DNA of 64,000 bases from Escherichia coli (GCF_003334335.1 NZ_QOWQ01000017.1); one strand, 5' to 3'; positions 45,039 to 56,231 are shown, counted from the stretch's first letter. A program made the numbers and translations. Notes: a model not told the origin generated them from the letters alone.

Positions 45039-46709
45039 ATGGATAATGCAGAACTCGCCATTGGTATCGATCTCGGTACTACCAATAGTTTAATTGCCGT
45101 CTGGAAAGACGGTGCCGCGCAATTAATTCCAAATAAGTTCGGTGAATATTTAACACCATCCATAATTAGCATGGATGAAAATAATCATATTTTAGTCGGA
45201 AAACCGGCTGTATCACGGCGTACTTCGCATCCGGATAAAACGGCAGCGTTATTTAAACGTGCAATGGGCAGTAATACCAACTGGCGGTTAGGCAGCGACA
45301 CATTTAACGCGCCAGAACTGTCCTCTTTGGTATTACGCTCATTAAAAGAAGATGCCGAAGAATTTCTGCAACGTCCGATTAAAGATGTGGTGATCTCCGT
45401 TCCGGCTTATTTCAGCGATGAACAACGCAAGCATACCCGTTTAGCAGCGGAGTTAGCCGGGTTAAATGCGGTACGCTTAATTAATGAACCCACAGCAGCT
45501 GCGATGGCGTATGGCCTGCATACCCAACAAAATACCCGTTCGCTGGTGTTTGATCTCGGTGGCGGCACGTTTGACGTTACGGTGCTTGAGTACGCCACGC
45601 CGGTGATTGAAGTTCACGCCTCCGCTGGCGACAACTTTCTTGGTGGCGAAGATTTTACCCATATGCTGGTCGATGAGGTTTTAAAACGCGCGGATGTCGC
45701 CAGGACCACGCTTAACGAGAGTGAACTGGCAGCCTTGTACGCCTGTGTGGAAGCGGCAAAATGTAGCAATCAATCGCCATTGCACATTCGCTGGCAGTAT
45801 CAGGAAGAAACGCGGGAATGCGAATTTTACGAGAACGAACTGGAAGATTTGTGGTTGCCGCTGCTCAATCGCTTGCGAGTGCCGATTGAACAGGCGTTGC
45901 GCGATGCGCGTCTGAAGCCGAGTCAAATCGACAGTCTGGTGCTGGTTGGCGGCGCGTCACAAATGCCGCTGGTGCAGCGAATCGCCGTGCGTCTGTTTGG
46001 CAAATTACCGTATCAAAGTTACGATCCGAGCACCATTGTCGCGCTGGGCGCAGCAATCCAGGCCGCCTGCCGCTTACGCAGTGAAGATATTGAAGAGGTA
46101 ATCCTCACTGATATTTGCCCTTACTCGTTGGGCGTTGAAGTTAACCGCCAGGGCGTTTCCGGCATTTTCTCGCCGATTATTGAACGAAACACCACTGTGC
46201 CCGTGTCGCGTGTAGAAACTTATTCAACCATGCACCCGGAACAGGATTCAATTACGGTTAACGTCTATCAGGGAGAAAACCACAAAGTTAAAAACAACAT
46301 TCTGGTGGAATCCTTCGATGTGCCGTTGAAGAAAACCGGGGCTTATCAGTCGATTGATATTCGCTTTAGTTATGATATCAACGGGTTGCTTGAAGTTGAC
46401 GTGCTTCTGGAAGACGGCAGCGTTAAGTCCAGAGTGATTAACCACAGCCCGGTAACATTGAGCGCGCAGCAGATTGAAGAGAGTCGGACGCGGTTATCCG
46501 CATTGAAAATTTATCCGCGCGATATGCTCATCAATCGCACCTTTAAAGCCAAACTGGAAGAGTTGTGGGCGCGGGCGCTGGGTGACGAGCGAGAAGAGAT
46601 CGGCCGGGTGATCACCGATTTTGATGCGGCGTTGCAGTCAAACGATATGGCCCGCGTGGATGAAGTTCGGCGGCGGGCGAGCGATTATTTAGCCATTGAG
46701 ATCCCATAA
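45039..46709 (+). CDS. hscC: Specialised Hsp70-family chaperone HscC
   Basis: 556 aa; Hsp70 signatures IGIDLGTTNS and DLGGGTFD. Confidence 0.95.
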   Translation: MDNAELAIGIDLGTTNSLIAVWKDGAAQLIPNKFGEYLTPSIISMDENNHILVGKPAVSRRTSHPDKTAALFKRAMGSNTNWRLGSDTFNAPELSSLVLRSLKEDAEEFLQRPIKDVVISVPAYFSDEQRKHTRLAAELAGLNAVRLINEPTAAAMAYGLHTQQNTRSLVFDLGGGTFDVTVLEYATPVIEVHASAGDNFLGGEDFTHMLVDEVLKRADVARTTLNESELAALYACVEAAKCSNQSPLHIRWQYQEETRECEFYENELEDLWLPLLNRLRVPIEQALRDARLKPSQIDSLVLVGGASQMPLVQRIAVRLFGKLPYQSYDPSTIVALGAAIQAACRLRSEDIEEVILTDICPYSLGVEVNRQGVSGIFSPIIERNTTVPVSRVETYSTMHPEQDSITVNVYQGENHKVKNNILVESFDVPLKKTGAYQSIDIRFSYDINGLLEVDVLLEDGSVKSRVINHSPVTLSAQQIEESRTRLSALKIYPRDMLINRTFKAKLEELWARALGDEREEIGRVITDFDAALQSNDMARVDEVRRRASDYLAIEIP

Positions 46710-46714
46710 ACACG

Positions 46715-46755
46715 GCTGCCGGATGCGGCGTAAACGCTGCATCCGGCATCGGCGC
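46715..46755. repeat. REP-like palindrome between convergent hscC and djlC
   Basis: gctgccggatgcggcgtaaacgctgcatccggcatcggc. Confidence 0.6.
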
Positions 46756-46768
46756 AAAAAACACATCG

Positions 46769-48220
46769 TCAGCTAAACAACATCGCGATTTTGCCGAGAG
46801 CATAACCTATCACCAGCACCGTTAAACTGATTTTGATAATGCTGGTAATGCTCTGTGGTTTTTCACCCTCATCATTTTTTTCTTCATGATTTTCAGGTGT
46901 TGGCTCATCGACATCTTCATCCTCCGGCTCGAGTTTCACTTTCGTCAAAAGCATCCGGGTGACAATGGCCTCTAATGGATGAGCATCTCCGCCTTCCAGC
47001 CTTGTATTAAGACGGGCCAGCATCTCTTGTTTCGGAAACGCTTCAAGTACTACCTGTTCCGCTACCCGATACAAATCCAGGAACGGTGAATCTTGCTCTG
47101 TCTCGCTACCGACTCTCGATTTCCACCACGCCCATGCTTTGCGCTTGAAGAATAACGACTCAATAAACGATTGACCTAACGGCGATAATTTTCCGCTATG
47201 TAAAATCTCCGCCCATAACAGCCGCGTCCGGGCGCTCTCACCAGGAACATATTTCAGCGGTTGACCTTGCGCATCTACCATGCTCCGCGCTTCGATAACC
47301 ATCACTAATAACGCGAAATAATCCGGGCAATGACGCTTGCTCCACTGCAACAACAAATTATCAGCTTGTATAGATGGGTAACTTTCCCAGTACGCGCAGA
47401 GATCGGCAAGCAGGCTTTCCCCCTCGCCGCAGTACAAACGTTGTGCACACAAGTAATACCGGGCATCTTCGCTTTCTGGTTCTTCCGTTTGCCACTGTTG
47501 AGCGACAGGAATGAGTTCCGCCATACCTGTTTGCACCGAGCTGTACCAGCGCAACAGTTTGCGATGTAACTTTGCATCATCAGGAATTAACCACGGACCT
47601 TCCATCGCCAAAAACGCAGTGACATAGTCAGGATGGTAACGGCAGCAACGTTCCAGCGCGAAGTAATACTCAACAGTCTGGTTCTGCAACGCAATGGGAT
47701 ATTCCAGAAGGCTAAGGAAATCGAAACAATCACCAGCCTGAATGGCCTCAAGAAAAGCCTCCCTTTCTTCCTCATCCATTCCTTCGCTGTCATTAAATGA
47801 ATGCCAGTTCAAACGCTCTGCCAGCAAAGAAGCACAATTTAATGAAAGATATCGCGCTTCTATGGCGATTGCACACAGCGGCCAGCGTAATTGATCGACA
47901 TCCTCCATGTTCCAGGTATTTAATTGCTGAATAAATTTCTGCCAGGCGGAAGGCTGAAAACGATCACTTTCTGAATCCAGTAATGTCCTGAATGCACGTA
48001 GTATTTCATGTTCAACGGCAGCATCTTTTTCTTCATCATCTGCTTCCTCGACAGGATTTACCGCCAGTCGCAGGGCCTCTTCATAGGCCTGGCGTAATGC
48101 TTTAAACCCTTGCGGATCGGTTTCGGGATGACACAACGGTAAGCGAGCAAGATAAGCCTGGCGGATAATGTCTATTTGCGTCGTGCTTTCAATTTCGAGG
48201 ATTTGCCAACATGTTTTCAT
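46769..48220 (-). CDS. djlC: J-domain co-chaperone DjlC with C-terminal hydrophobic tail
   Basis: 483 aa; N-terminal J-domain-like region with HPE at the HPD position; C-terminal [26 protein letters not shown]; 4-nt overlap with ybeU. Confidence 0.9.
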
Positions 48221-48924
48221 AGGTCGCTCACATCCTTAAGCGTTACCGGGCATTCAGACTGGACAGTTAATGGCTGCCAGGGAAGCGTGGCATAGAAACG
48301 ATCGCTTCCCGCTGCCAGCTCTTCGAACATACGACTCCCGGCGCTATCGTATTTGTACAGGGTTAGCGCCTCGCGTAGCGAAGTGTTGTCTTCGCACTGA
48401 GAAGATTGCCAGTAGAGACGTCCTAACGAATAGGCGGAAAAATAGTGCATCCAGCTGTGATAGTAATGGTGAGCTCGTACATAGACGCGCGATTGCAGCC
48501 ATAAACTCTCTTCTTCCGTCAGCCACTTGTTGAGCACACCGACCCGTGACAGAAACCCCATTCGAACATAATCCCAGGCTTTGATTCCCCCTTCCCCACA
48601 GCACATAGCGGTTTGGGCAACGAATTGGGTATAAATCAACCCTCTCTCCGAGCCACCAGCAATTAATGCTTTCCACTCTTCAGGGGAAGAGCGATGCCAT
48701 GTCAGATATAAGCCAGCTAAATCATTGGCATGACCATCATCAGTCATCTGATAAATAGTCTGAATTAAATCATCACGATTATTTATTCCCCAGGATGATG
48801 AGAGCTCGAATTCTTTTATCCCAGTATACATTTTTGGCGAGTCATGCGCGGGTTTGCAACCCTGATTAAGTATTTCCATGGGCGCAGAAAGCGCAAAAAG
48901 AAGATATTGTTCTTCCTTATTCAT
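48217..48924 (-). CDS. ybeU: DUF1266-family protein YbeU
   Basis: 235 aa; paralogue of ybeR in this window; translationally coupled to djlC. Confidence 0.85.
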
Positions 48925-49025
48925 TTGTTAATAATCCCTTAAGTGCATTAACTGACTACTTTTTTATTATTGATGAGTATAAACTTGACGCTTTCAAAAT
49001 AAAAAGAAAATCGAAGCATTCACAC

Positions 49026-49580
49026 ATGAATAAAAAATTAATGTATATATTCGCAATTTTTATAGTTGCAGCAATTACCTGTATTAGCCAACCCAAGAAA
49101 ACGACGTTGCGTGATAAAGCCATGGTGAATTATGCCTTTGATTATTTAAGCTCACCGGGCAGTCTTCCATTCACCACGGCAGCCACGGAGCTTTCCGCGA
49201 TTCATGGTCACTCAACGTCGCAATATCGCCTTGGAGAATTTTATCTTCATGGTAGCGACGGTAAACCACTGGATTATACACAGGCGAGATACTGGTATGA
49301 GCAATCAGCGGAACAGGAAAATCCACGCGCGCAAAGTAAACTGGGGTGGATCTACCTCAAAGGTCTGGGGGTCAAACCCGACACCCGTAAAGCAATTCTC
49401 TGGTATAAGGAAGCAGCTGAACAAGGGTATGCTCATGCTCAATATACTTTAGGTTTGATCTACAGAAATGGCTCAGGTATTAATGTTAACCATTATGAAT
49501 CTCAAAAATGGTTAAAACTGGCCGCCAAACAACATTACAAAAATGCGGAAAGATTACTTGCCGGGCTTCCCGCACATTAA
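49026..49580 (+). CDS. ybeT: Sel1-repeat protein YbeT with N-terminal hydrophobic segment
   Basis: 184 aa; repeats of the A-x-QG...AQ-x-x-LG-x-Y type; N-terminal [21 protein letters not shown]. Confidence 0.85.
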
Positions 49581-49589
49581 CGTCGACTG

Positions 49590-51017
49590 TCACCCGAACA
49601 GATGGAGTATTTTCCCTATCAAACCAGCAAAGATAAAAATATAGAAAATAATTTTAATGATGCCCAGACAGCCTGGCCCACCATCGTCAACGGGCATTGG
49701 CTGCGGTTGCGGCTCCGGTTCAACAGTTTGCTTCTCGGTAAAATTCGCCGCCTGAATTAATAATCGACGAATAATTAATGCTTCCAGTGGACAACGATTT
49801 TCTGCATCAAGGCGGCTCACAATCGGCATTAATGATTCTTCTGTAGGTTGGCAGGCCTGCACTAATTGTTTGGCAACTAGATATAATGGCCATAAGGTAT
49901 GTTCTGTATCACGCGTGAGTGAGATCCGCGGCTTACGTCCTTTGTGCAAAACCATCTCGACCAGTGAACGCCCCAGCGCAGAGAGTTTTTCATCGCTGAG
50001 TATTTCGTATAAATGAAAACGCGTACGGGCGCTGTCGCCGGGGACATAAAGTAGCGGTTTTCCCTGATCGTTAACCAGATCACGCGCTTCAATCATCATC
50101 ACCAGTAATGGGTAATAATCGACCCGATGCTGACGGCACCATTGCAACATTAAAGCATCCGCCTGGGTGGAGGGATACTCGCGCCAGTAGTCACAAAGTT
50201 CTGCCAACAGGCTTTCGCCTTCTCCACAATAGACGCGTTGCGCGTATTCATAATAAGGCGCATCTTCATTATCAGGTTCAGTTTCCCGCCATGACTGGGC
50301 GTAATCCAGAAGTTCGGGGATATCCAGGCGACCTGCGCTATACCAGCGGAGTAAATTTCTGTGCAGTTTTGCATCATCGGGGATAATCACTGCGCGATGT
50401 TGCGCTAAATACAATGTCAGCCATTGTGGATGCGATGACCAAATCCGAGCGAACATTTGGTAAAAATCGATGGTGTCATTTTGCACGGCAACGGGCAGAT
50501 GCAGAATGGTCTGGAAGTTAAAAACATTCCCCTTCGCAATGGCATATAAAAAGGATTCCAGTTCTTCTTCGTCTATTTCCCCGGTATTTTCCTCCTGTAA
50601 CCACCGCAATCTTTCTGCTAATAACACCACGCACTCGAAGGATAAATGGGCAGTGTTCATGGCGATTGTGCACAGCGACCAGCGTAATTCATCAATCTCC
50701 TCCATCGAGCAATAATTTAATTGCTGAATGAATCGCTGCCAGGCGGAGGGCAGAAAACGTTCACTATCAGAGGCAAGTAACGCACGAAAGGCGAGCAGAA
50801 TTTCATGTTCTGCTACCTCATATTCTTCTGGTTGCCAAACAGATTTAGCAGGCGACTGCGCAATCCGTAGCGCCTCCTCATACGCCTGACGAAGTTGTTT
50901 AAAACCCTGCGGATCGGTTTCTGGATGAAAGGACGGTAACAGCGCCAGATAAGCGCGGCGGATAATATCGACGTCAGTCGTTTCCTCTATATCGAGGATC
51001 TTCCAGCAATTTTTCAT
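49590..51017 (-). CDS. djlB: J-domain co-chaperone DjlB with C-terminal hydrophobic tail
   Basis: 475 aa; paralogue of djlC; HPE motif; C-terminal [26 protein letters not shown]; 4-nt overlap with ybeR. Confidence 0.9.
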
Positions 51018-51721
51018 AGGTCGCTCATATCCTTAAGCGTTTCCGGGCATGCAGAATAGTAAGCCAATGGTTGCCAGGACAAGGTAGGGTAATACGCATC
51101 ATCACTGGCAAATAATTGATAAAACATATCATTGCCGGAATCGTCGTATTCTTTACGCGCTAAGAATTCGCGTAATAAAGGCAGATGATCATCTTCGGGA
51201 GACTGCCAATATTGCCGACCAAAGGTATAACCGGCAAAGTATTGCCGCCAGTTACTATAATAACGTAGAGCCCGTAGATGAATGCGCGACTGGATCCATA
51301 GACTTTCTTCTTCGCTCAACCAGTTATTAAGTACGCCCATTCGGCTTAAAAAACCCATCCGGACATAATCCCAGGCTTTGATTCCCCCTTCGCCACAGCA
51401 TTCGGCGGTGCTGGCGACAAATTGCGCATAAGCCTGACCTTGCTCATTTAGTTCAGCAAGATAGTCACGCCATTCACATGGCGAATAACGAAACCAGCGG
51501 TGATAAAACCCTGCCAACCGAGCGGCATGACCGTTATCGATCATTCGGTGAATTGTGCGCAGCAGGTCATCACGGTCATCAATTCCCCATGAGGAAGAAA
51601 GGTCAAAAAAGCATGTACCTAAATACATTTTGGGTGATGAATGCGAAGGTAAACAGCATTCATTGCGTATTTCCATCGGAGTGGAAAGTGCAAACAATAT
51701 TTTTTGCGACTCCATGTCCAT
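51014..51721 (-). CDS. ybeR: DUF1266-family protein YbeR
   Basis: 235 aa; paralogue of ybeU (shared [20 protein letters not shown] block). Confidence 0.85.
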
Positions 51722-51878
51722 ATAATTTATCCTTAAATATTCATTAAATGAATATTAGCCGCATTGCGAGGCTCGTTTATTTATACTTTTCTGACGCGAC
51801 ATAATACGCATAAAATAAGGCTTACGCAAAAATGGAACACATAAAAATATAATATGTTTTATCTGCAACCATAAGGAA

Positions 51879-52862
51879 ATGATAATGATTTTCACGTCAA
51901 GTTGCTGCGATAATTTATCAATAGATGAGATTATCGAACGTGCTGAAAAAGGCGATTGCGAGGCTCAATATATTGTTGGGTTTTATTATAATCGCGATAG
52001 CGCAATTGATTCTCCGGACGACGAAAAAGCCTTTTACTGGCTGAAGCTGGCCGCTGAGCAAGGTCATTGTGAAGCACAGTATTCCTTAGGGCAAAAGTAT
52101 ACCGAGGATAAAAGCCGTCATAAAGATAATGAGCAAGCCATCTTCTGGCTGAAAAAAGCTGCCCTACAAGGCCATACTTTCGCTTCCAACGCCCTTGGCT
52201 GGACACTGGATCGTGGAGAAGCCCCCAATTATAAAGAAGCGGTTGTCTGGTATCAGATAGCCGCGGAGAGCGGAATGTCTTATGCGCAAAATAATCTTGG
52301 GTGGATGTACAGAAATGGCAACGGAGTCGCAAAAGACTATGCGCTGGCATTTTTCTGGTACAAACAAGCTGCATTACAAGGCCATAGTGACGCGCAAAAC
52401 AATCTGGCCGATCTTTATGAAGACGGAAAAGGCGTTGCTCAAAACAAGACACTCGCCGCATTCTGGTATTTGAAAAGCGCACAGCAGGGTAATCGGCACG
52501 CCCAGTTTCAAATTGCATGGGATTATAACGCTGGCGAAGGGGTGGACCAGGACTATAAGCAAGCGATGTACTGGTATCTGAAGGCTGCCGCTCAGGGGAG
52601 CGTCGGCGCTTACGTCAACATCGGTTATATGTATAAACACGGACAAGGCGTTGAGAAAGATTATCAGGCTGCCTTTGAATGGTTTACGAAAGCCGCTGAA
52701 TGCAATGACGCCACTGCCTGGTATAACCTGGCCATTATGTATCACTACGGAGAAGGAAGACCTGTCGATCTCCGACAGGCTCTCGACCTGTATCGTAAAG
52801 TTCAGTCATCCGGAACCAGAGATGTCAGTCAGGAAATTCGTGAGACTGAAGATTTACTGTAG
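51879..52862 (+). CDS. ybeQ: Sel1-repeat protein YbeQ
   Basis: 327 aa; about seven tandem Sel1-like repeats; no signal peptide. Confidence 0.85.
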   Translation: MIMIFTSSCCDNLSIDEIIERAEKGDCEAQYIVGFYYNRDSAIDSPDDEKAFYWLKLAAEQGHCEAQYSLGQKYTEDKSRHKDNEQAIFWLKKAALQGHTFASNALGWTLDRGEAPNYKEAVVWYQIAAESGMSYAQNNLGWMYRNGNGVAKDYALAFFWYKQAALQGHSDAQNNLADLYEDGKGVAQNKTLAAFWYLKSAQQGNRHAQFQIAWDYNAGEGVDQDYKQAMYWYLKAAAQGSVGAYVNIGYMYKHGQGVEKDYQAAFEWFTKAAECNDATAWYNLAIMYHYGEGRPVDLRQALDLYRKVQSSGTRDVSQEIRETEDLL

Positions 52863-52931
52863 AGATAAAAACAAGGGCCGGGGAATTTCATTCGGCCCAT
52901 ATTCTCTTTATTGCTGTGCGAAATCAGACTA

Positions 52932-53414
52932 TTACGGCTCAAACGGGCGTCTCTGGAACTGGTCATGACCACATTTCGGGCATAGCGTCAGCACTTCCGG
53001 TGTGTAGATCGGGAGATGGAAGTGACATTTCTCGCAGACCAGATTTCCCAGCCCGACCACTTCTCCGCTGTGATAAACCCCATGATGATTGAGGTCCTGG
53101 AAAACTTCGCGCCATTCAAGCTGCGTTTTATCGGTGATGTCTGCCAGCTCCTGCCACAAGCTTTCTTTAATCACCCGCATAAAGACGCTGTCAGATTCTT
53201 CTTTCAGGCTCTCTTCATAGCTCATGGCGAACTCTTCCAGGTCACGTCTGACAGCTCGCGTCAGCTCATCGACCTCGGTTCGCGTTAACTCCCCTGTTTT
53301 TATTACGCGCTCGCGCGCCTGTTCCACCAGTGCGTCGATATCACGTTCGCCATTGCGCAGGCGTTCGCTCAGTGACGCAACCAGTTCACGGTAATATTGA
53401 GCAACCTTGTTCAT
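52932..53414 (-). CDS. ybeL: DUF1451 protein YbeL with C-terminal zinc-ribbon
   Basis: 160 aa; C-terminal CEKC...CPKC motif. Confidence 0.85.
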   Translation of the reverse strand: MNKVAQYYRELVASLSERLRNGERDIDALVEQARERVIKTGELTRTEVDELTRAVRRDLEEFAMSYEESLKEESDSVFMRVIKESLWQELADITDKTQLEWREVFQDLNHHGVYHSGEVVGLGNLVCEKCHFHLPIYTPEVLTLCPKCGHDQFQRRPFEP

Positions 53415-53648
53415 CGTTTCATCTCCCGGGTCGTTAACTGACTATAATAATAGACGTTCTTTGTTCCTTGCTTTGCTAATACGCCCACAAACTCTGTAAA
53501 TTAATGTATGAATAATCCGGGCATCATTTCAACGTCGAGTGCGCGAAAGGCTGTTTTGACGCGGACGTTTGGGCTATGCTATGCGGATCTGAAAAACCAC
53601 CTCAACGCTACATTTGTAGCCGTATTGAAAACAGGACCACTGGCTGCC

Positions 53649-56231
53649 ATGCAAGAGCAATACCGCCCGGAAGAGATAGAATCCAAAGTACAGCTTCATT
53701 GGGATGAGAAGCGCACATTTGAAGTAACCGAAGACGAGAGCAAAGAGAAGTATTACTGCCTGTCTATGCTTCCCTATCCTTCTGGTCGACTACACATGGG
53801 CCACGTACGTAACTACACCATCGGTGACGTGATCGCCCGCTACCAGCGTATGCTGGGCAAAAACGTCCTGCAGCCGATCGGCTGGGACGCGTTTGGTCTG
53901 CCTGCGGAAGGCGCGGCGGTGAAAAACAACACCGCTCCGGCACCGTGGACGTACGACAACATCGCGTATATGAAAAACCAGCTCAAAATGCTGGGCTTTG
54001 GTTATGACTGGAGCCGCGAGCTGGCAACCTGTACGCCGGAATACTACCGTTGGGAACAGAAATTCTTCACCGAGCTGTATAAAAAAGGCCTGGTATATAA
54101 GAAGACTTCTGCGGTCAACTGGTGCCCGAACGACCAGACCGTACTGGCGAACGAACAAGTTATCGACGGCTGCTGCTGGCGCTGCGATACTAAAGTTGAA
54201 CGTAAAGAGATCCCGCAGTGGTTTATCAAAATCACTGCTTACGCTGACGAGCTGCTCAACGATCTGGATAAACTGGATCACTGGCCAGACACCGTTAAAA
54301 CCATGCAGCGTAACTGGATCGGTCGTTCCGAAGGCGTGGAGATCACCTTCAACGTTAACGACTATGACAACACGCTGACCGTTTACACTACCCGCCCGGA
54401 CACCTTTATGGGTTGTACCTACCTGGCGGTAGCTGCGGGTCATCCGCTGGCGCAGAAAGCGGCGGAAAATAATCCTGAACTGGCGGCCTTTATTGACGAA
54501 TGCCGTAACACCAAAGTTGCCGAAGCTGAAATGGCGACGATGGAGAAAAAAGGCGTCGATACTGGCTTTAAAGCGGTTCACCCATTAACGGGCGAAGAAA
54601 TTCCCGTTTGGGCAGCAAACTTCGTATTGATGGAGTACGGCACGGGCGCAGTTATGGCGGTACCGGGGCACGACCAGCGCGACTACGAGTTTGCCTCTAA
54701 ATACGGCCTGAACATCAAACCGGTTATCCTGGCAGCTGACGGCTCTGAGCCAGATCTTTCTCAGCAAGCCCTGACTGAAAAAGGCGTGCTGTTCAACTCT
54801 GGCGAGTTCAACGGTCTTGACCATGAAGCGGCCTTCAACGCCATCGCCGATAAACTGACTGCGATGGGCGTTGGCGAGCGTAAAGTGAACTACCGCCTGC
54901 GCGACTGGGGTGTTTCCCGTCAGCGTTACTGGGGCGCGCCGATTCCGATGGTGACGCTGGAAGACGGTACCGTAATGCCGACCCCGGACGACCAGCTGCC
55001 GGTGATCCTGCCGGAAGATGTGGTAATGGACGGCATTACCAGCCCGATTAAAGCAGATCCGGAGTGGGCGAAAACTACCGTTAACGGTATGCCAGCACTG
55101 CGTGAAACCGACACTTTCGACACCTTTATGGAGTCCTCCTGGTACTATGCGCGCTACACTTGCCCGCAGTACAAAGAAGGTATGCTGGATTCCGAAGCGG
55201 CTAACTACTGGCTGCCGGTGGATATCTACATTGGTGGTATTGAACACGCCATTATGCACCTGCTCTACTTCCGCTTCTTCCACAAACTGATGCGTGATGC
55301 AGGCATGGTGAACTCTGACGAACCAGCGAAACAGTTGCTGTGTCAGGGTATGGTGCTGGCAGATGCCTTCTACTATGTTGGCGAAAACGGCGAACGTAAC
55401 TGGGTTTCCCCGGTTGATGCTATCGTTGAACGTGACGAGAAAGGCCGTATCGTGAAAGCGAAAGATGCGGCAGGCCATGAACTGGTTTATACCGGCATGA
55501 GCAAAATGTCCAAGTCGAAGAACAACGGTATCGACCCGCAGGTGATGGTTGAACGTTACGGCGCGGACACCGTTCGTCTGTTTATGATGTTTGCTTCTCC
55601 GGCTGATATGACTCTCGAATGGCAGGAATCCGGTGTGGAAGGGGCTAACCGCTTCCTGAAACGTGTCTGGAAACTGGTTTACGAGCACACAGCAAAAGGT
55701 GATGTTGCGGCACTGAACGTTGATGCGCTGACTGAAAATCAGAAAGCGCTGCGTCGCGATGTGCATAAAACGATCGCTAAAGTGACCGATGATATCGGCC
55801 GTCGTCAGACCTTCAACACCGCAATTGCGGCGATTATGGAGCTGATGAACAAACTGGCGAAAGCACCAACCGATGGCGAGCAGGATCGCGCTCTGATGCA
55901 GGAAGCACTGCTGGCCGTTGTCCGTATGCTTAACCCGTTCACCCCGCACATCTGCTTCACGCTGTGGCAGGAACTGAAAGGCGAAGGCGATATCGACAAC
56001 GCGCCGTGGCCGGTTGCTGACGAAAAAGCGATGGTGGAAGACTCCACGCTGGTCGTGGTGCAGGTTAACGGTAAAGTCCGTGCCAAAATCACCGTTCCGG
56101 TGGACGCAACGGAAGAACAGGTTCGCGAACGTGCTGGCCAGGAACATCTGGTAGCAAAATATCTTGATGGCGTTACTGTACGTAAAGTGATTTACGTACC
56201 AGGTAAACTCCTCAATCTGGTCGTTGGCTAA
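53649..56231 (+). CDS. leuS: Leucyl-tRNA synthetase
   Basis: 860 aa from [21 protein letters not shown]...; HMGH and KMSKS motifs; the ORF track's upstream start was trimmed. Confidence 0.96.

What the first reader, a model, noticed from the sequence alone, without database searches (positions are those of the whole stretch)
45039..52862. Tandemly duplicated DUF1266 / tail-anchored J-protein / Sel1-repeat module next to Hsp70 hscC
Two paralogous units sit side by side: ybeU-djlC with divergent ybeT, and ybeR-djlB with divergent ybeQ. In each, the DUF1266 gene's TGA overlaps the J-protein ATG (ATGA), so the pair is probably translationally coupled, and a Sel1-repeat gene is transcribed divergently. 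DjlB and DjlC share an N-terminal J-like region and a C-terminal hydrophobic tail; YbeU and YbeR share long identical blocks. The Hsp70 gene hscC converges on the first unit. The components are named, but the function of the ensemble, and any role for the DUF1266 and Sel1 proteins as clients or adaptors, is to my knowledge unresolved; a membrane-tethered Hsp70 recruitment system is my inference only.
Basis: partly seen in the sequence, partly recalled or inferred. Interest (0 to 1): 0.7.

Follow-up and report, generated by a model that had tools for sequence, protein, structure and literature searches.

The report
Three-part membrane Hsp70 chaperone module
This E. coli island holds the known HscC chaperone and its two membrane-anchored J-protein helpers. 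The uncharacterised DUF1266 gene in front of each helper is almost always found with such a helper and an HscC gene in other bacteria, while the Sel1 genes are local additions.

Summary
The window is the E. coli rihA–ybeL island: hscC, djlC-ybeU, ybeT, djlB-ybeR, ybeQ. Both ATGA overlaps are real. DjlC/DjlB are 49% identical and YbeU/YbeR 59%.

The HscC–DjlC/DjlB partnership, the tail anchor and the HPE motif are already published. What I found is that DUF1266 travels with them.
- In 78 species-representative loci, DUF1266 is followed by a Djl-type J-protein gene in 76. All 76 overlap it: 72 by the same 4 bases, three by 1 base and one by 13.
- A convergent HscC-type Hsp70 gene follows in 74.
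- Distant relatives keep the trio in another gene order (Hsp70→J→DUF1266) in a genome I believe is Clostridium and on a Bacillus mycoides plasmid.
- One protein fuses an HPE J-domain, TPR repeats and DUF1266.

Sel1 genes occur only in Escherichia, plus a ybeQ homologue in Salmonella. YbeT and YbeQ appear to sit in different compartments, so they are not core parts.

DUF1266 gives a confident all-helical model with no solved structural relative.

In E. coli the island is dispensable (hscC is absent from 19% of complete genomes), H-NS-silenced and under purifying selection.

Best reading: a three-component, membrane-tethered Hsp70 machine in which DUF1266 is the J-protein's partner subunit. Its biochemical role and its clients remain unknown.

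The parts
45039..46709 (+). hscC: HscC-type Hsp70, the ATPase motor of the module
   Evidence: 556-aa ORF. RefSeq calls it 'molecular chaperone HscC'. It matches the DnaK and HscA NCBIfam models at E about 1e-113 but scores well below both equivalog cut-offs. A convergent homologue (54-98% identity; 45% in the decayed L051) follows the DUF1266-Djl pair in 74 of 78 loci.
46769..48220 (-). djlC: tail-anchored J-protein with an HPE motif. Layout: J-domain 1-55, linker, TPR-like helical domain about 70-430, acidic linker, TM helix 456-481
48217..48924 (-). ybeU: DUF1266 protein. Its stop codon overlaps the djlC start (ATGA)
49026..49580 (+). ybeT: short Sel1-repeat protein with an N-terminal signal or anchor segment. 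Lineage-specific insertion between the two pairs
   Evidence: 3 Sel1 repeats. Hydrophobic segment at residues 2-23. Absent from the Salmonella island and from all non-Escherichia loci. Induced 4.1-fold by SlyA and listed in the H-NS regulon (PMC5797941).
49590..51017 (-). djlB: paralogue of djlC, also a tail-anchored HPE J-protein
   Evidence: 48.9% identical to DjlC over the full length. TM segment at 446-475. Salmonella has an orthologue next to its ybeQ homologue.
51014..51721 (-). ybeR: DUF1266 paralogue of ybeU. Its stop codon overlaps the djlB start (ATGA)
   Evidence: 59.1% identical to YbeU. Overlap seen directly. Groups with the YbeR-type clade in the NJ tree.
51879..52862 (+). ybeQ: cytoplasmic Sel1-repeat protein, divergent from ybeR. 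Conserved in Escherichia and Salmonella only
   Evidence: 7-8 Sel1 repeats. No hydrophobic segment. The Salmonella homologue is 49% identical. Absent elsewhere.

Best explanation
The region is a dedicated, membrane-tethered Hsp70 machine with three conserved components, not two.

- HscC is the ATPase.
- DjlC and DjlB are J-proteins held at the cytoplasmic face of the inner membrane by a C-terminal anchor. Each has an HPE-type J-domain that switches on HscC and a TPR-like helical domain.
- YbeU and YbeR (DUF1266) are soluble all-helical proteins. Each is made from the same mRNA as its J-protein, with the two reading frames overlapping by 4 bases.

I infer that DUF1266 binds the J-protein's helical domain roughly one-to-one. 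On this view it supplies the client-recognising or targeting surface, so that Djl plus DUF1266 together make a 'split' class-C J-protein. Proteins selected at the membrane would then be handed to HscC.

In an ancestor of Escherichia, Salmonella and Citrobacter, the ancestral long, multi-pass Djl was shortened to a tail-anchored form and the DUF1266-Djl pair was duplicated. This gave two adaptor pairs that share one HscC. The Sel1 genes ybeQ and ybeT were added later in this lineage and are not core parts.

In E. coli the island is H-NS-silenced, inducible by SlyA and dispensable.

What is shown: the gene linkage, the overlap, the fusion protein, the folds and the selection pattern. What comes from the literature: stimulation of the HscC ATPase by DjlC, membrane insertion of DjlC, and the Cd2+ and UV phenotypes. 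What is inferred: DUF1266-Djl binding, the adaptor role and the identity of the clients.
For: 1. Linkage. In 78 species-representative loci found through DUF1266, 76 have a Djl-type J-protein gene directly downstream on the same strand. 74 also have a convergent HscC-type Hsp70 gene. Three of the four loci without an Hsp70 hit are cut by the end of the sequence held.
2. Junction. 72 of 76 junctions are the 4-bp ATGA overlap, three overlap by 1 base and one by 13.
3. Independent contexts. The cassette sits at a fixed place within Gilliamella and within the P. fluorescens group, but its neighbours differ between genera.
4. Distant relatives keep the partnership. P0174 has the trio. A genome I believe is Clostridium (L094) and a Bacillus mycoides plasmid have Hsp70→J(HPE)→DUF1266 on one strand. 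In P0180 and P0226 the DUF1266 gene is followed by an overlapping HPE J-protein gene.
5. Fusion. P0253 is one polypeptide with a Djl-type HPE J-domain (E 4e-24), TPR repeats and DUF1266.
6. The pair is the unit of duplication. It is duplicated in Enterobacteriaceae and independently in L092.
7. HPE is invariant in 62 Djl proteins.
8. Structure. DjlC is a J-domain plus a TPR-like solenoid plus a TM helix. YbeU is a confident all-alpha fold. Its superfamily conserves a set of polar and aromatic residues: W45, H65, W117, D118, R121, E139, W158, W172.
9. All the genes are under purifying selection. dN/dS is 0.06-0.15 for the Djl, DUF1266 and Sel1 genes against 0.02-0.03 for hscC.
10. The island comes and goes as a block in E. 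coli: 4,403 to 4,416 of 5,426 genomes match each part.
11. ybeU-djlC is treated as one operon ('ybeU-hscD') and is SlyA-induced and in the H-NS regulon.
12. Published biochemistry and genetics for HscC and DjlC.
Against: - There is no direct evidence that DUF1266 binds Djl or HscC. I could not run a complex prediction or any interaction assay.
- Some HscC-like Hsp70 genes are paired with a membrane J-protein but have no DUF1266 within 5 kb. This is so on a Ralstonia megaplasmid and a P. oryzihabitans plasmid, where the J motif is RPD rather than HPE. DUF1266 is therefore not needed by every HscC-type system.
- Leminorella keeps DUF1266-Djl but has no Hsp70 gene within 10 kb.
- Many remote DUF1266 domains are fused to domains typical of surface proteins (Cu_amine_oxidN1, SLH, LRR_5). 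Hsp70 cannot act outside the cytoplasm, so the domain has some activity of its own that I cannot name.
- The conserved His/Asp/Arg/Glu/Trp set could be an enzyme or ligand site rather than a client-binding surface.
- In the published in-vitro work DjlC stimulated HscC, and the review that reports this does not mention YbeU.
Confidence: 0.55

Rival explanations
1. DUF1266 is the dedicated client or a regulated cargo of the HscC-Djl chaperone, not an adaptor. It could be an enzyme or ligand-binding protein whose folding, membrane delivery or activity is controlled by the J-protein it is made with.
For: The superfamily conserves a constellation of His, Asp, Arg, Glu and Trp residues that looks like an active or ligand site. 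The domain also occurs without any J-protein, fused to surface-protein domains in remote relatives, so it has a function of its own. Dedicated Hsp70 systems with one main client are known, for example HscA-HscB with IscU (established knowledge; review).
Confidence: 0.22
2. DUF1266 is the missing nucleotide-exchange factor or another ATPase-cycle regulator of HscC. It would complete the usual Hsp70, J-protein and exchange-factor trio in a system that has lost GrpE binding.
For: Hsp70 operons typically encode three partners. HscC lacks the GrpE-interaction signature (review). DUF1266 is all-helical, as are the eukaryotic exchange factors BAG, HspBP1 and Sil1 (my own knowledge). The trio is conserved.
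Confidence: 0.1
3. The island is a conflict or defence system, against phage or competing bacteria, that uses an Hsp70 motor. The fast-evolving DUF1266, Djl and Sel1 parts would be the sensors.
For: - The island is accessory in E. coli: hscC is absent from 19% of complete genomes, the rihA-ybeL junction can hold other cargo, and some strains carry decayed copies.
- It has low G+C (0.43-0.48 against 0.51 for the window) and is H-NS-silenced.
- The Djl, DUF1266 and Sel1 genes evolve about five times faster than hscC.
- The cassette is plasmid-borne in Erwinia persicina and Bacillus mycoides.
- Toxin-antitoxin and KAP NTPase genes lie nearby in Pectobacterium.
- ybeT was a hit in a TraDIS screen with phage Arnold.
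Against: - No PADLOC family matches hscC, the Djl or the DUF1266 genes. The only hits are marginal ones for YbeT and YbeQ to the PtuA model (E 2e-3 and 1e-4, no stretch passing on its own).
- No effector domain such as a nuclease or a pore-former is present.
- The cassette sits at a fixed chromosomal place across many Gilliamella and Pseudomonas species. That pattern suggests vertical inheritance rather than a mobile defence island.
- It is absent from phage collections.
- dN/dS is well below 1.
- The ybeT knockout behaved like wild type with phage Arnold.
Confidence: 0.08
4. The Sel1 proteins YbeQ and YbeT are real functional partners of the DjlB/YbeR and DjlC/YbeU pairs in Escherichia, for example as clients or adaptors.
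For: They are divergently transcribed from the neighbouring pairs. ybeT and ybeU-djlC respond together to SlyA and H-NS. ybeQ keeps its position in Salmonella. dN/dS is 0.08-0.125, so they are maintained by selection.
Against: They are absent next to the cassette in every non-Escherichia genome among the 78 loci, and ybeT is absent even from Salmonella. YbeT carries a signal or anchor segment and YbeQ does not, so they probably work in different compartments. The two are related only at the repeat level. Shared H-NS silencing is expected for any AT-rich island.
Confidence: 0.15

Closest known systems
E. coli HscC-DjlC/DjlB chaperone system (Kluck et al. 2002; reviewed in PMC8215388)
   Same: These are the same genes. 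The window is 100% identical to E. coli chromosomes. It contains an Hsp70 with dedicated, tail-anchored J-proteins that carry HPE instead of HPD.
   Different: The published system has two components. The papers I could search do not treat YbeU or YbeR as part of it. 'DUF1266' occurs in one paper of the library, and only as a gene label. Here DUF1266 emerges as a conserved third partner of HPE-type Djl proteins.
HscA-HscB-IscU, the specialised Hsp70 system for iron-sulfur cluster assembly
   Same: A specialised bacterial Hsp70 with its own J-protein, no GrpE requirement, a narrow task and operon linkage to the proteins it serves.
   Different: HscC scores below the HscA equivalog cut-offs. The J-protein here is membrane-anchored with a TPR-like domain. 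The linked third protein is DUF1266, not an Fe-S scaffold, and its role is unknown.
Class-C J-proteins with TPR client-binding or scaffold domains, such as eukaryotic DNAJC3 and DNAJC7
   Different: DjlC itself has no Pfam TPR match. It carries HPE instead of HPD, has a membrane anchor, and the putative client module is a separate polypeptide whose gene overlaps it.
Mitochondrial Tim14(Pam18)-Tim16(Pam16)-mtHsp70 import motor

Membership tests
Hsp70, HscC subfamily (hscC) | Hsp70 nucleotide-binding and substrate-binding domains, distinct from DnaK and HscA | tested here: met
   NCBIfam DnaK and HscA models match at E about 1e-113, but scores of 377-385 bits fall below the equivalog cut-offs of 620-822 bits. 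RefSeq names the protein HscC.
Hsp70, HscC subfamily (hscC) | [quoted passage not shown] | not testable with these tools
   Reported in the literature (Kluck 2002, via PMC8215388).
J-domain proteins (DjlC, DjlB) | J-domain fold | tested here: met
J-domain proteins (DjlC, DjlB) | Canonical HPD tripeptide | tested here: not met
   The motif is HPE, invariant in all 62 aligned Djl proteins and present in distant homologues. The literature describes HPE as a tolerated variant specific to the HscC partners.
Tail-anchored membrane proteins (DjlC, DjlB) | A single TM segment at the extreme C-terminus and no N-terminal signal | tested here: met
   The only hydrophobic segments are DjlC 457-483 and DjlB 446-475. 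The model shows a helix at 456-481 after a disordered linker. Membrane insertion of DjlC is reported in the literature.
DUF1266 (Pfam PF06889) (YbeU, YbeR) | Significant match to the family profile | tested here: met
   YbeU residues 41-216 match at E 4.7e-45. YbeR is 59% identical to YbeU.
Sel1 repeat proteins (Pfam PF08238) (YbeQ, YbeT) | Tandem Sel1 repeats | tested here: met
   YbeQ has 7 repeats at E<=1e-3 plus one weaker repeat. YbeT has 3 repeats.
TPR proteins (central domain of DjlC) | TPR sequence repeats and a TPR superhelix | tested here: inconclusive
Known anti-phage defence systems (PADLOC-DB) | Match to a defence-system protein model | tested here: not met
   No family matches HscC, DjlB, DjlC, YbeU or YbeR. 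YbeT and YbeQ give only marginal hits to the PtuA model (E 2e-3 and 1e-4, no stretch passing on its own).
Hsp70 nucleotide-exchange factors (GrpE, BAG, HspBP1/Sil1) as a candidate identity for DUF1266 | Fold similarity to a known exchange factor | tested here: not met
Translationally coupled gene pair (ybeU-djlC, ybeR-djlB) | The stop codon of the upstream gene overlaps the start codon of the downstream gene; translation of the second depends on the first | tested here: inconclusive
   The overlap is present and conserved in 76 of 76 junctions. Dependence of Djl translation on DUF1266 translation needs an experiment.

The most novel reading that the evidence does not exclude
DUF1266 is an obligate, previously unrecognised third subunit of an ancient membrane-anchored Hsp70 machine (HscC, an HPE J-protein and DUF1266) shared by Firmicutes and Proteobacteria. 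In this machine the J-protein is 'split': DUF1266 is its detachable client-recognition or regulatory module. Finding what DUF1266 binds would then reveal the function of HscC, which has been unknown for a long time.
Probability: 0.4. Interest if true: 0.7.

Novelty: new variant of a known kind. Interest (0 to 1): 0.55.

Why it matters
HscC is the third Hsp70 of E. coli, and its cellular job has been unclear since 2002. Only Cd2+ and UV sensitivity and an effect on sigma-70 are reported. The literature treats it as a two-part system of HscC with DjlB or DjlC. If a conserved third protein always accompanies the HPE-type J-proteins, the field gains a concrete handle. YbeU and YbeR can be used as baits to find clients, and they should be added to in-vitro reconstitutions. 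Double ybeU ybeR deletions should be scored alongside hscC. The result also gives DUF1266 (about 2,000 sequence clusters) its first functional context. It removes the Sel1 genes from the core model, which saves experiments.

Tried and rejected
- Sequence searches of the PDB with YbeU, with DjlC and with the 78-sequence DUF1266 profile found nothing meaningful.
- PADLOC and PHROGs had no hits for the core genes. NCBIfam has no model for the Djl or DUF1266 proteins.
- A scan of viral contigs with the DUF1266 profile found no relative.
- Rfam found no RNA family in 44000-54000.
- The promoter and terminator scan found no more sites than in shuffled sequence, so I draw no regulatory conclusion from it.
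- I looked for a conserved EEVD-like C-terminal tail in HscC that a TPR domain might clamp. The 73 readable C-termini share only a loose acidic-leucine pattern, so I dropped the idea.
- I considered a Cys-His-Asp catalytic triad in DUF1266. The cysteine is invariant in the Djl-linked subfamily but is not among the residues conserved across the superfamily, so I rejected it.
- The TraDIS link between ybeT and phage Arnold was not confirmed by the authors' own knockout.
Three plasmid examples stand in for it.

Full report
**What is in the window**

The region is the E. coli chromosomal segment gltIJKL-rihA-hscC-djlC-ybeU-ybeT-djlB-ybeR-ybeQ-ybeL-leuS. It is 100% identical to many E. coli genomes. 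Both DUF1266/J-protein junctions read ATGA, with the stop inside the start.

DjlC and DjlB are 48.9% identical end to end, and YbeU and YbeR 59.1%. YbeU and YbeR share a 20-residue identical block. DjlB and DjlC each have one hydrophobic segment at the extreme C-terminus. YbeU is a clear DUF1266 member. YbeQ and YbeT are Sel1-repeat proteins.

One correction is needed. YbeT and YbeQ resemble each other only at the repeat level, and they differ in length (184 against 327 aa). YbeT has an N-terminal signal or anchor segment and YbeQ has none. What was duplicated is the DUF1266-Djl pair, not a three-gene unit.

**What is already known**

The literature establishes four things (PMC8215388, PMC13254874):
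- DjlC, and by inference DjlB, is the specific J-protein of HscC.
- Both are tail-anchored inner-membrane proteins.
- They carry HPE instead of HPD.
- ΔhscC and ΔdjlB ΔdjlC strains are Cd2+-sensitive.

The function is still called unknown. 'DUF1266' occurs in one paper of the searchable library, and only as a label in an expression table. I found no paper that treats YbeU or YbeR as part of the chaperone system.

**The main result: DUF1266 travels with the J-protein and the Hsp70**

A scan of one genome per species with a DUF1266 alignment returned 78 loci. They come from Escherichia, Klebsiella spallanzanii, Leminorella, Rahnella, Pragia, Erwinia, Limnobaculum, Pectobacterium, Gilliamella, Bowmanella and about 45 Pseudomonas species.
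- In 76 of the 78 loci a Djl-type J-protein gene follows DUF1266 directly on the same strand. The other two are cut by the end of the sequence held.
- In 74 a convergent HscC-type Hsp70 gene comes next.
- All 76 junctions overlap: 72 by the 4-bp ATGA, three by 1 base and one by 13.
- The neighbouring genes are conserved within Gilliamella and within the P. fluorescens group, but they differ between genera.

More distant DUF1266 proteins came from a profile search of 1.8 billion representative proteins. That search gave 2,052 hits at E<=1e-3. These relatives keep the partnership:
- P0174 has the same trio.
- L092 has two DUF1266-Djl pairs in tandem plus a third Djl gene, which is an independent duplication.
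- A genome I believe to be Clostridium carboxidivorans, and a Bacillus mycoides plasmid, have Hsp70→J(HPE)→DUF1266 on one strand. The trio is kept with a different gene order. The identification of assembly GCA_000175595.1 rests on my memory of the accession, supported by a 222-aa AFDB match from that species.
- In P0180 and P0226 the DUF1266 gene is followed by an overlapping HPE J-protein gene.
- P0253 is a single 497-aa protein with a Djl-type HPE J-domain, TPR repeats and a C-terminal DUF1266 domain.

Conserved adjacency in different contexts, a changed gene order, repeated duplication as a pair and a natural fusion together make a strong case. DUF1266 and the HPE J-protein very probably act together physically.

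**Limits of the linkage**
- HscC-like genes on a Ralstonia megaplasmid and a P. oryzihabitans plasmid are followed by a membrane J-protein whose motif is RPD. No DUF1266 lies within 5 kb in six-frame searches. DUF1266 therefore goes with HPE-type Djl proteins, not with every HscC-like Hsp70.
- Leminorella keeps the pair but has no Hsp70 within 10 kb.
- In the related Pragia and Limnobaculum genomes, other genes lie between Djl and HscC. In Pragia these are two metabolic genes.

**The Sel1 genes are not core**

Among the 78 loci, Sel1 genes flank the cassette only in the three Escherichia loci. Salmonella keeps a ybeQ homologue (49% identity) but has no ybeT, and its two DUF1266-Djl pairs are directly adjacent. 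K. spallanzanii has a single pair next to ybeL and no Sel1 gene.

**Evolution in enterobacteria**

Outside Escherichia, Salmonella and Klebsiella, nearly all Djl proteins are long, about 880-910 aa, with 2-3 C-terminal TM segments and weak DUF805 similarity. The enterobacterial forms are truncated to about 475-487 aa with one tail anchor.

An NJ tree places YbeR with the Salmonella copy next to ybeQ, and YbeU with the Salmonella copy next to hscC. The duplication is therefore older than the Escherichia/Salmonella split.

Against cryptic Escherichia clades, dN/dS is 0.02-0.03 for hscC and 0 to 0.04 for the flanking genes. It is 0.10-0.15 for djlB and djlC, 0.06-0.12 for ybeU and ybeR, and 0.08-0.125 for the Sel1 genes. 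All are maintained by selection, and the partner genes evolve about five times faster than the motor.

**The island in the E. coli population**

| Feature | Genomes out of 5,426 |
|---|---|
| hscC, any match | 4,410 |
| djlC-ybeU, at least 80% covered | 4,269 |
| djlB-ybeR, at least 80% covered | 3,713 |
| whole island, at least 80% covered | 3,657 |

- About 19% of genomes lack hscC. In the examples I examined (clone D i14, NRG 857C) rihA lies next to ybeL.
- E. coli B has a decayed one-pair version.
- Strain GF3-3 carries different genes at the same site.
- The island is AT-rich. A DUF1266 gene is listed at 308-fold in an expression table of the H-NS study on strain 042. ybeT and 'ybeU-hscD' are SlyA-induced members of the H-NS regulon.

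**Structures**
- Across the superfamily the conserved residues are W45, H65, W117, D118, R121, E139, W158, G168 and W172. That pattern suggests a binding or catalytic site.
- DjlC has five parts: a J-domain, a disordered linker, a TPR-like solenoid, an acidic linker and a TM helix.

**Interpretation**

The best-supported model is a three-component, membrane-tethered Hsp70 machine. DUF1266 would be the partner subunit of the J-protein, most simply its client-selecting module.

Rivals are that DUF1266 is the dedicated client or cargo, that it is a nucleotide-exchange factor, or that the island is a defence system. The defence reading is weakened by three findings: no convincing PADLOC match, no effector domain, and a stable chromosomal position in Pseudomonas and Gilliamella. 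None of the biochemical roles can be decided with these tools.

**Verdict**

The locus and the HscC-Djl partnership are known. The conserved DUF1266 partnership appears not to have been described, and it makes the function of HscC more testable.

Noticed in passing
L007 1619-2569 (E. coli GF3-3), equivalent to window 44956-52931: In this strain the rihA-ybeL junction holds a DUF6985 gene and two hypothetical genes instead of the hscC island. The junction is therefore a site where different cargo can sit.
   Followed up: partly
L012 3966-5000 and 5018-5983 (Escherichia sp. MOD1-EC7003): Between ybeL and ybeQ there is an extra Djl-like ORF of 344 aa. It has no J-domain but does have a C-terminal hydrophobic tail. 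A 321-aa protein with a signal peptide follows it.
   Followed up: no
L003 16082-17320 (Salmonella enterica): A 412-aa protein with no Pfam hit lies between hscC and rihA. It is absent from E. coli.
   Followed up: no
Pseudomonas loci L023-L087, e.g. L023 6772-9654: A gene for a PAS-GGDEF-EAL protein of about 960 aa adjoins the cassette in 22 Pseudomonas loci. It is upstream of DUF1266 in the P. mendocina group and downstream of hscC in the P. fluorescens group.
   Followed up: no
L102 4995-8613 (Ralstonia solanacearum megaplasmid); L103 5010-8359 (P. oryzihabitans plasmid): An HscC-like Hsp70 gene is followed by a membrane J-protein gene with RPD in place of HPD or HPE, and there is no DUF1266. 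The neighbours are an Nramp metal transporter in Ralstonia, and copper-resistance genes with a heavy-metal two-component system in P. oryzihabitans. This recalls the Cd2+ phenotype of E. coli hscC mutants.
   Followed up: partly
L092 8001-16711: An unidentified genome carries DUF1266-Djl, DUF1266-Djl and a third Djl gene in tandem. This duplication of the pair is independent of the enterobacterial one.
   Followed up: partly
L019 10946-13608 (Pragia fontium); L002 (Leminorella richardii): An isocitrate/tartrate-dehydrogenase-like gene and an aldehyde dehydrogenase gene are inserted between Djl and HscC in Pragia. In Leminorella the same two genes follow Djl, and no Hsp70 gene lies within 10 kb.
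   Followed up: partly
E. coli hits H64-H69 (window 45039-46709 and 49590-51721): Several E. coli strains carry IS1, IS903B or IS4-family insertions inside hscC, djlB or ybeR. E. coli B has a frameshifted djlC and an internal stop in ybeQ (L005).
   Followed up: partly
L016 10001-10387: The end of a contig labelled Paenibacillus sp. USDA918EY is 100% identical at protein level to E. coli ybeU. This is most likely contamination of that assembly.
   Followed up: no
window 48217-48924: Database names for YbeU relatives include 'putative tRNA ligase' and a 627-aa 'Hsc56 co-chaperone of HscC' that looks like a read-through of ybeU into djlC. Both look like annotation errors.
   Followed up: no
window 49581-49589: ybeT and djlB converge with only 9 bp between their stop codons, and the scan found no terminator-like hairpin there.
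   Followed up: no
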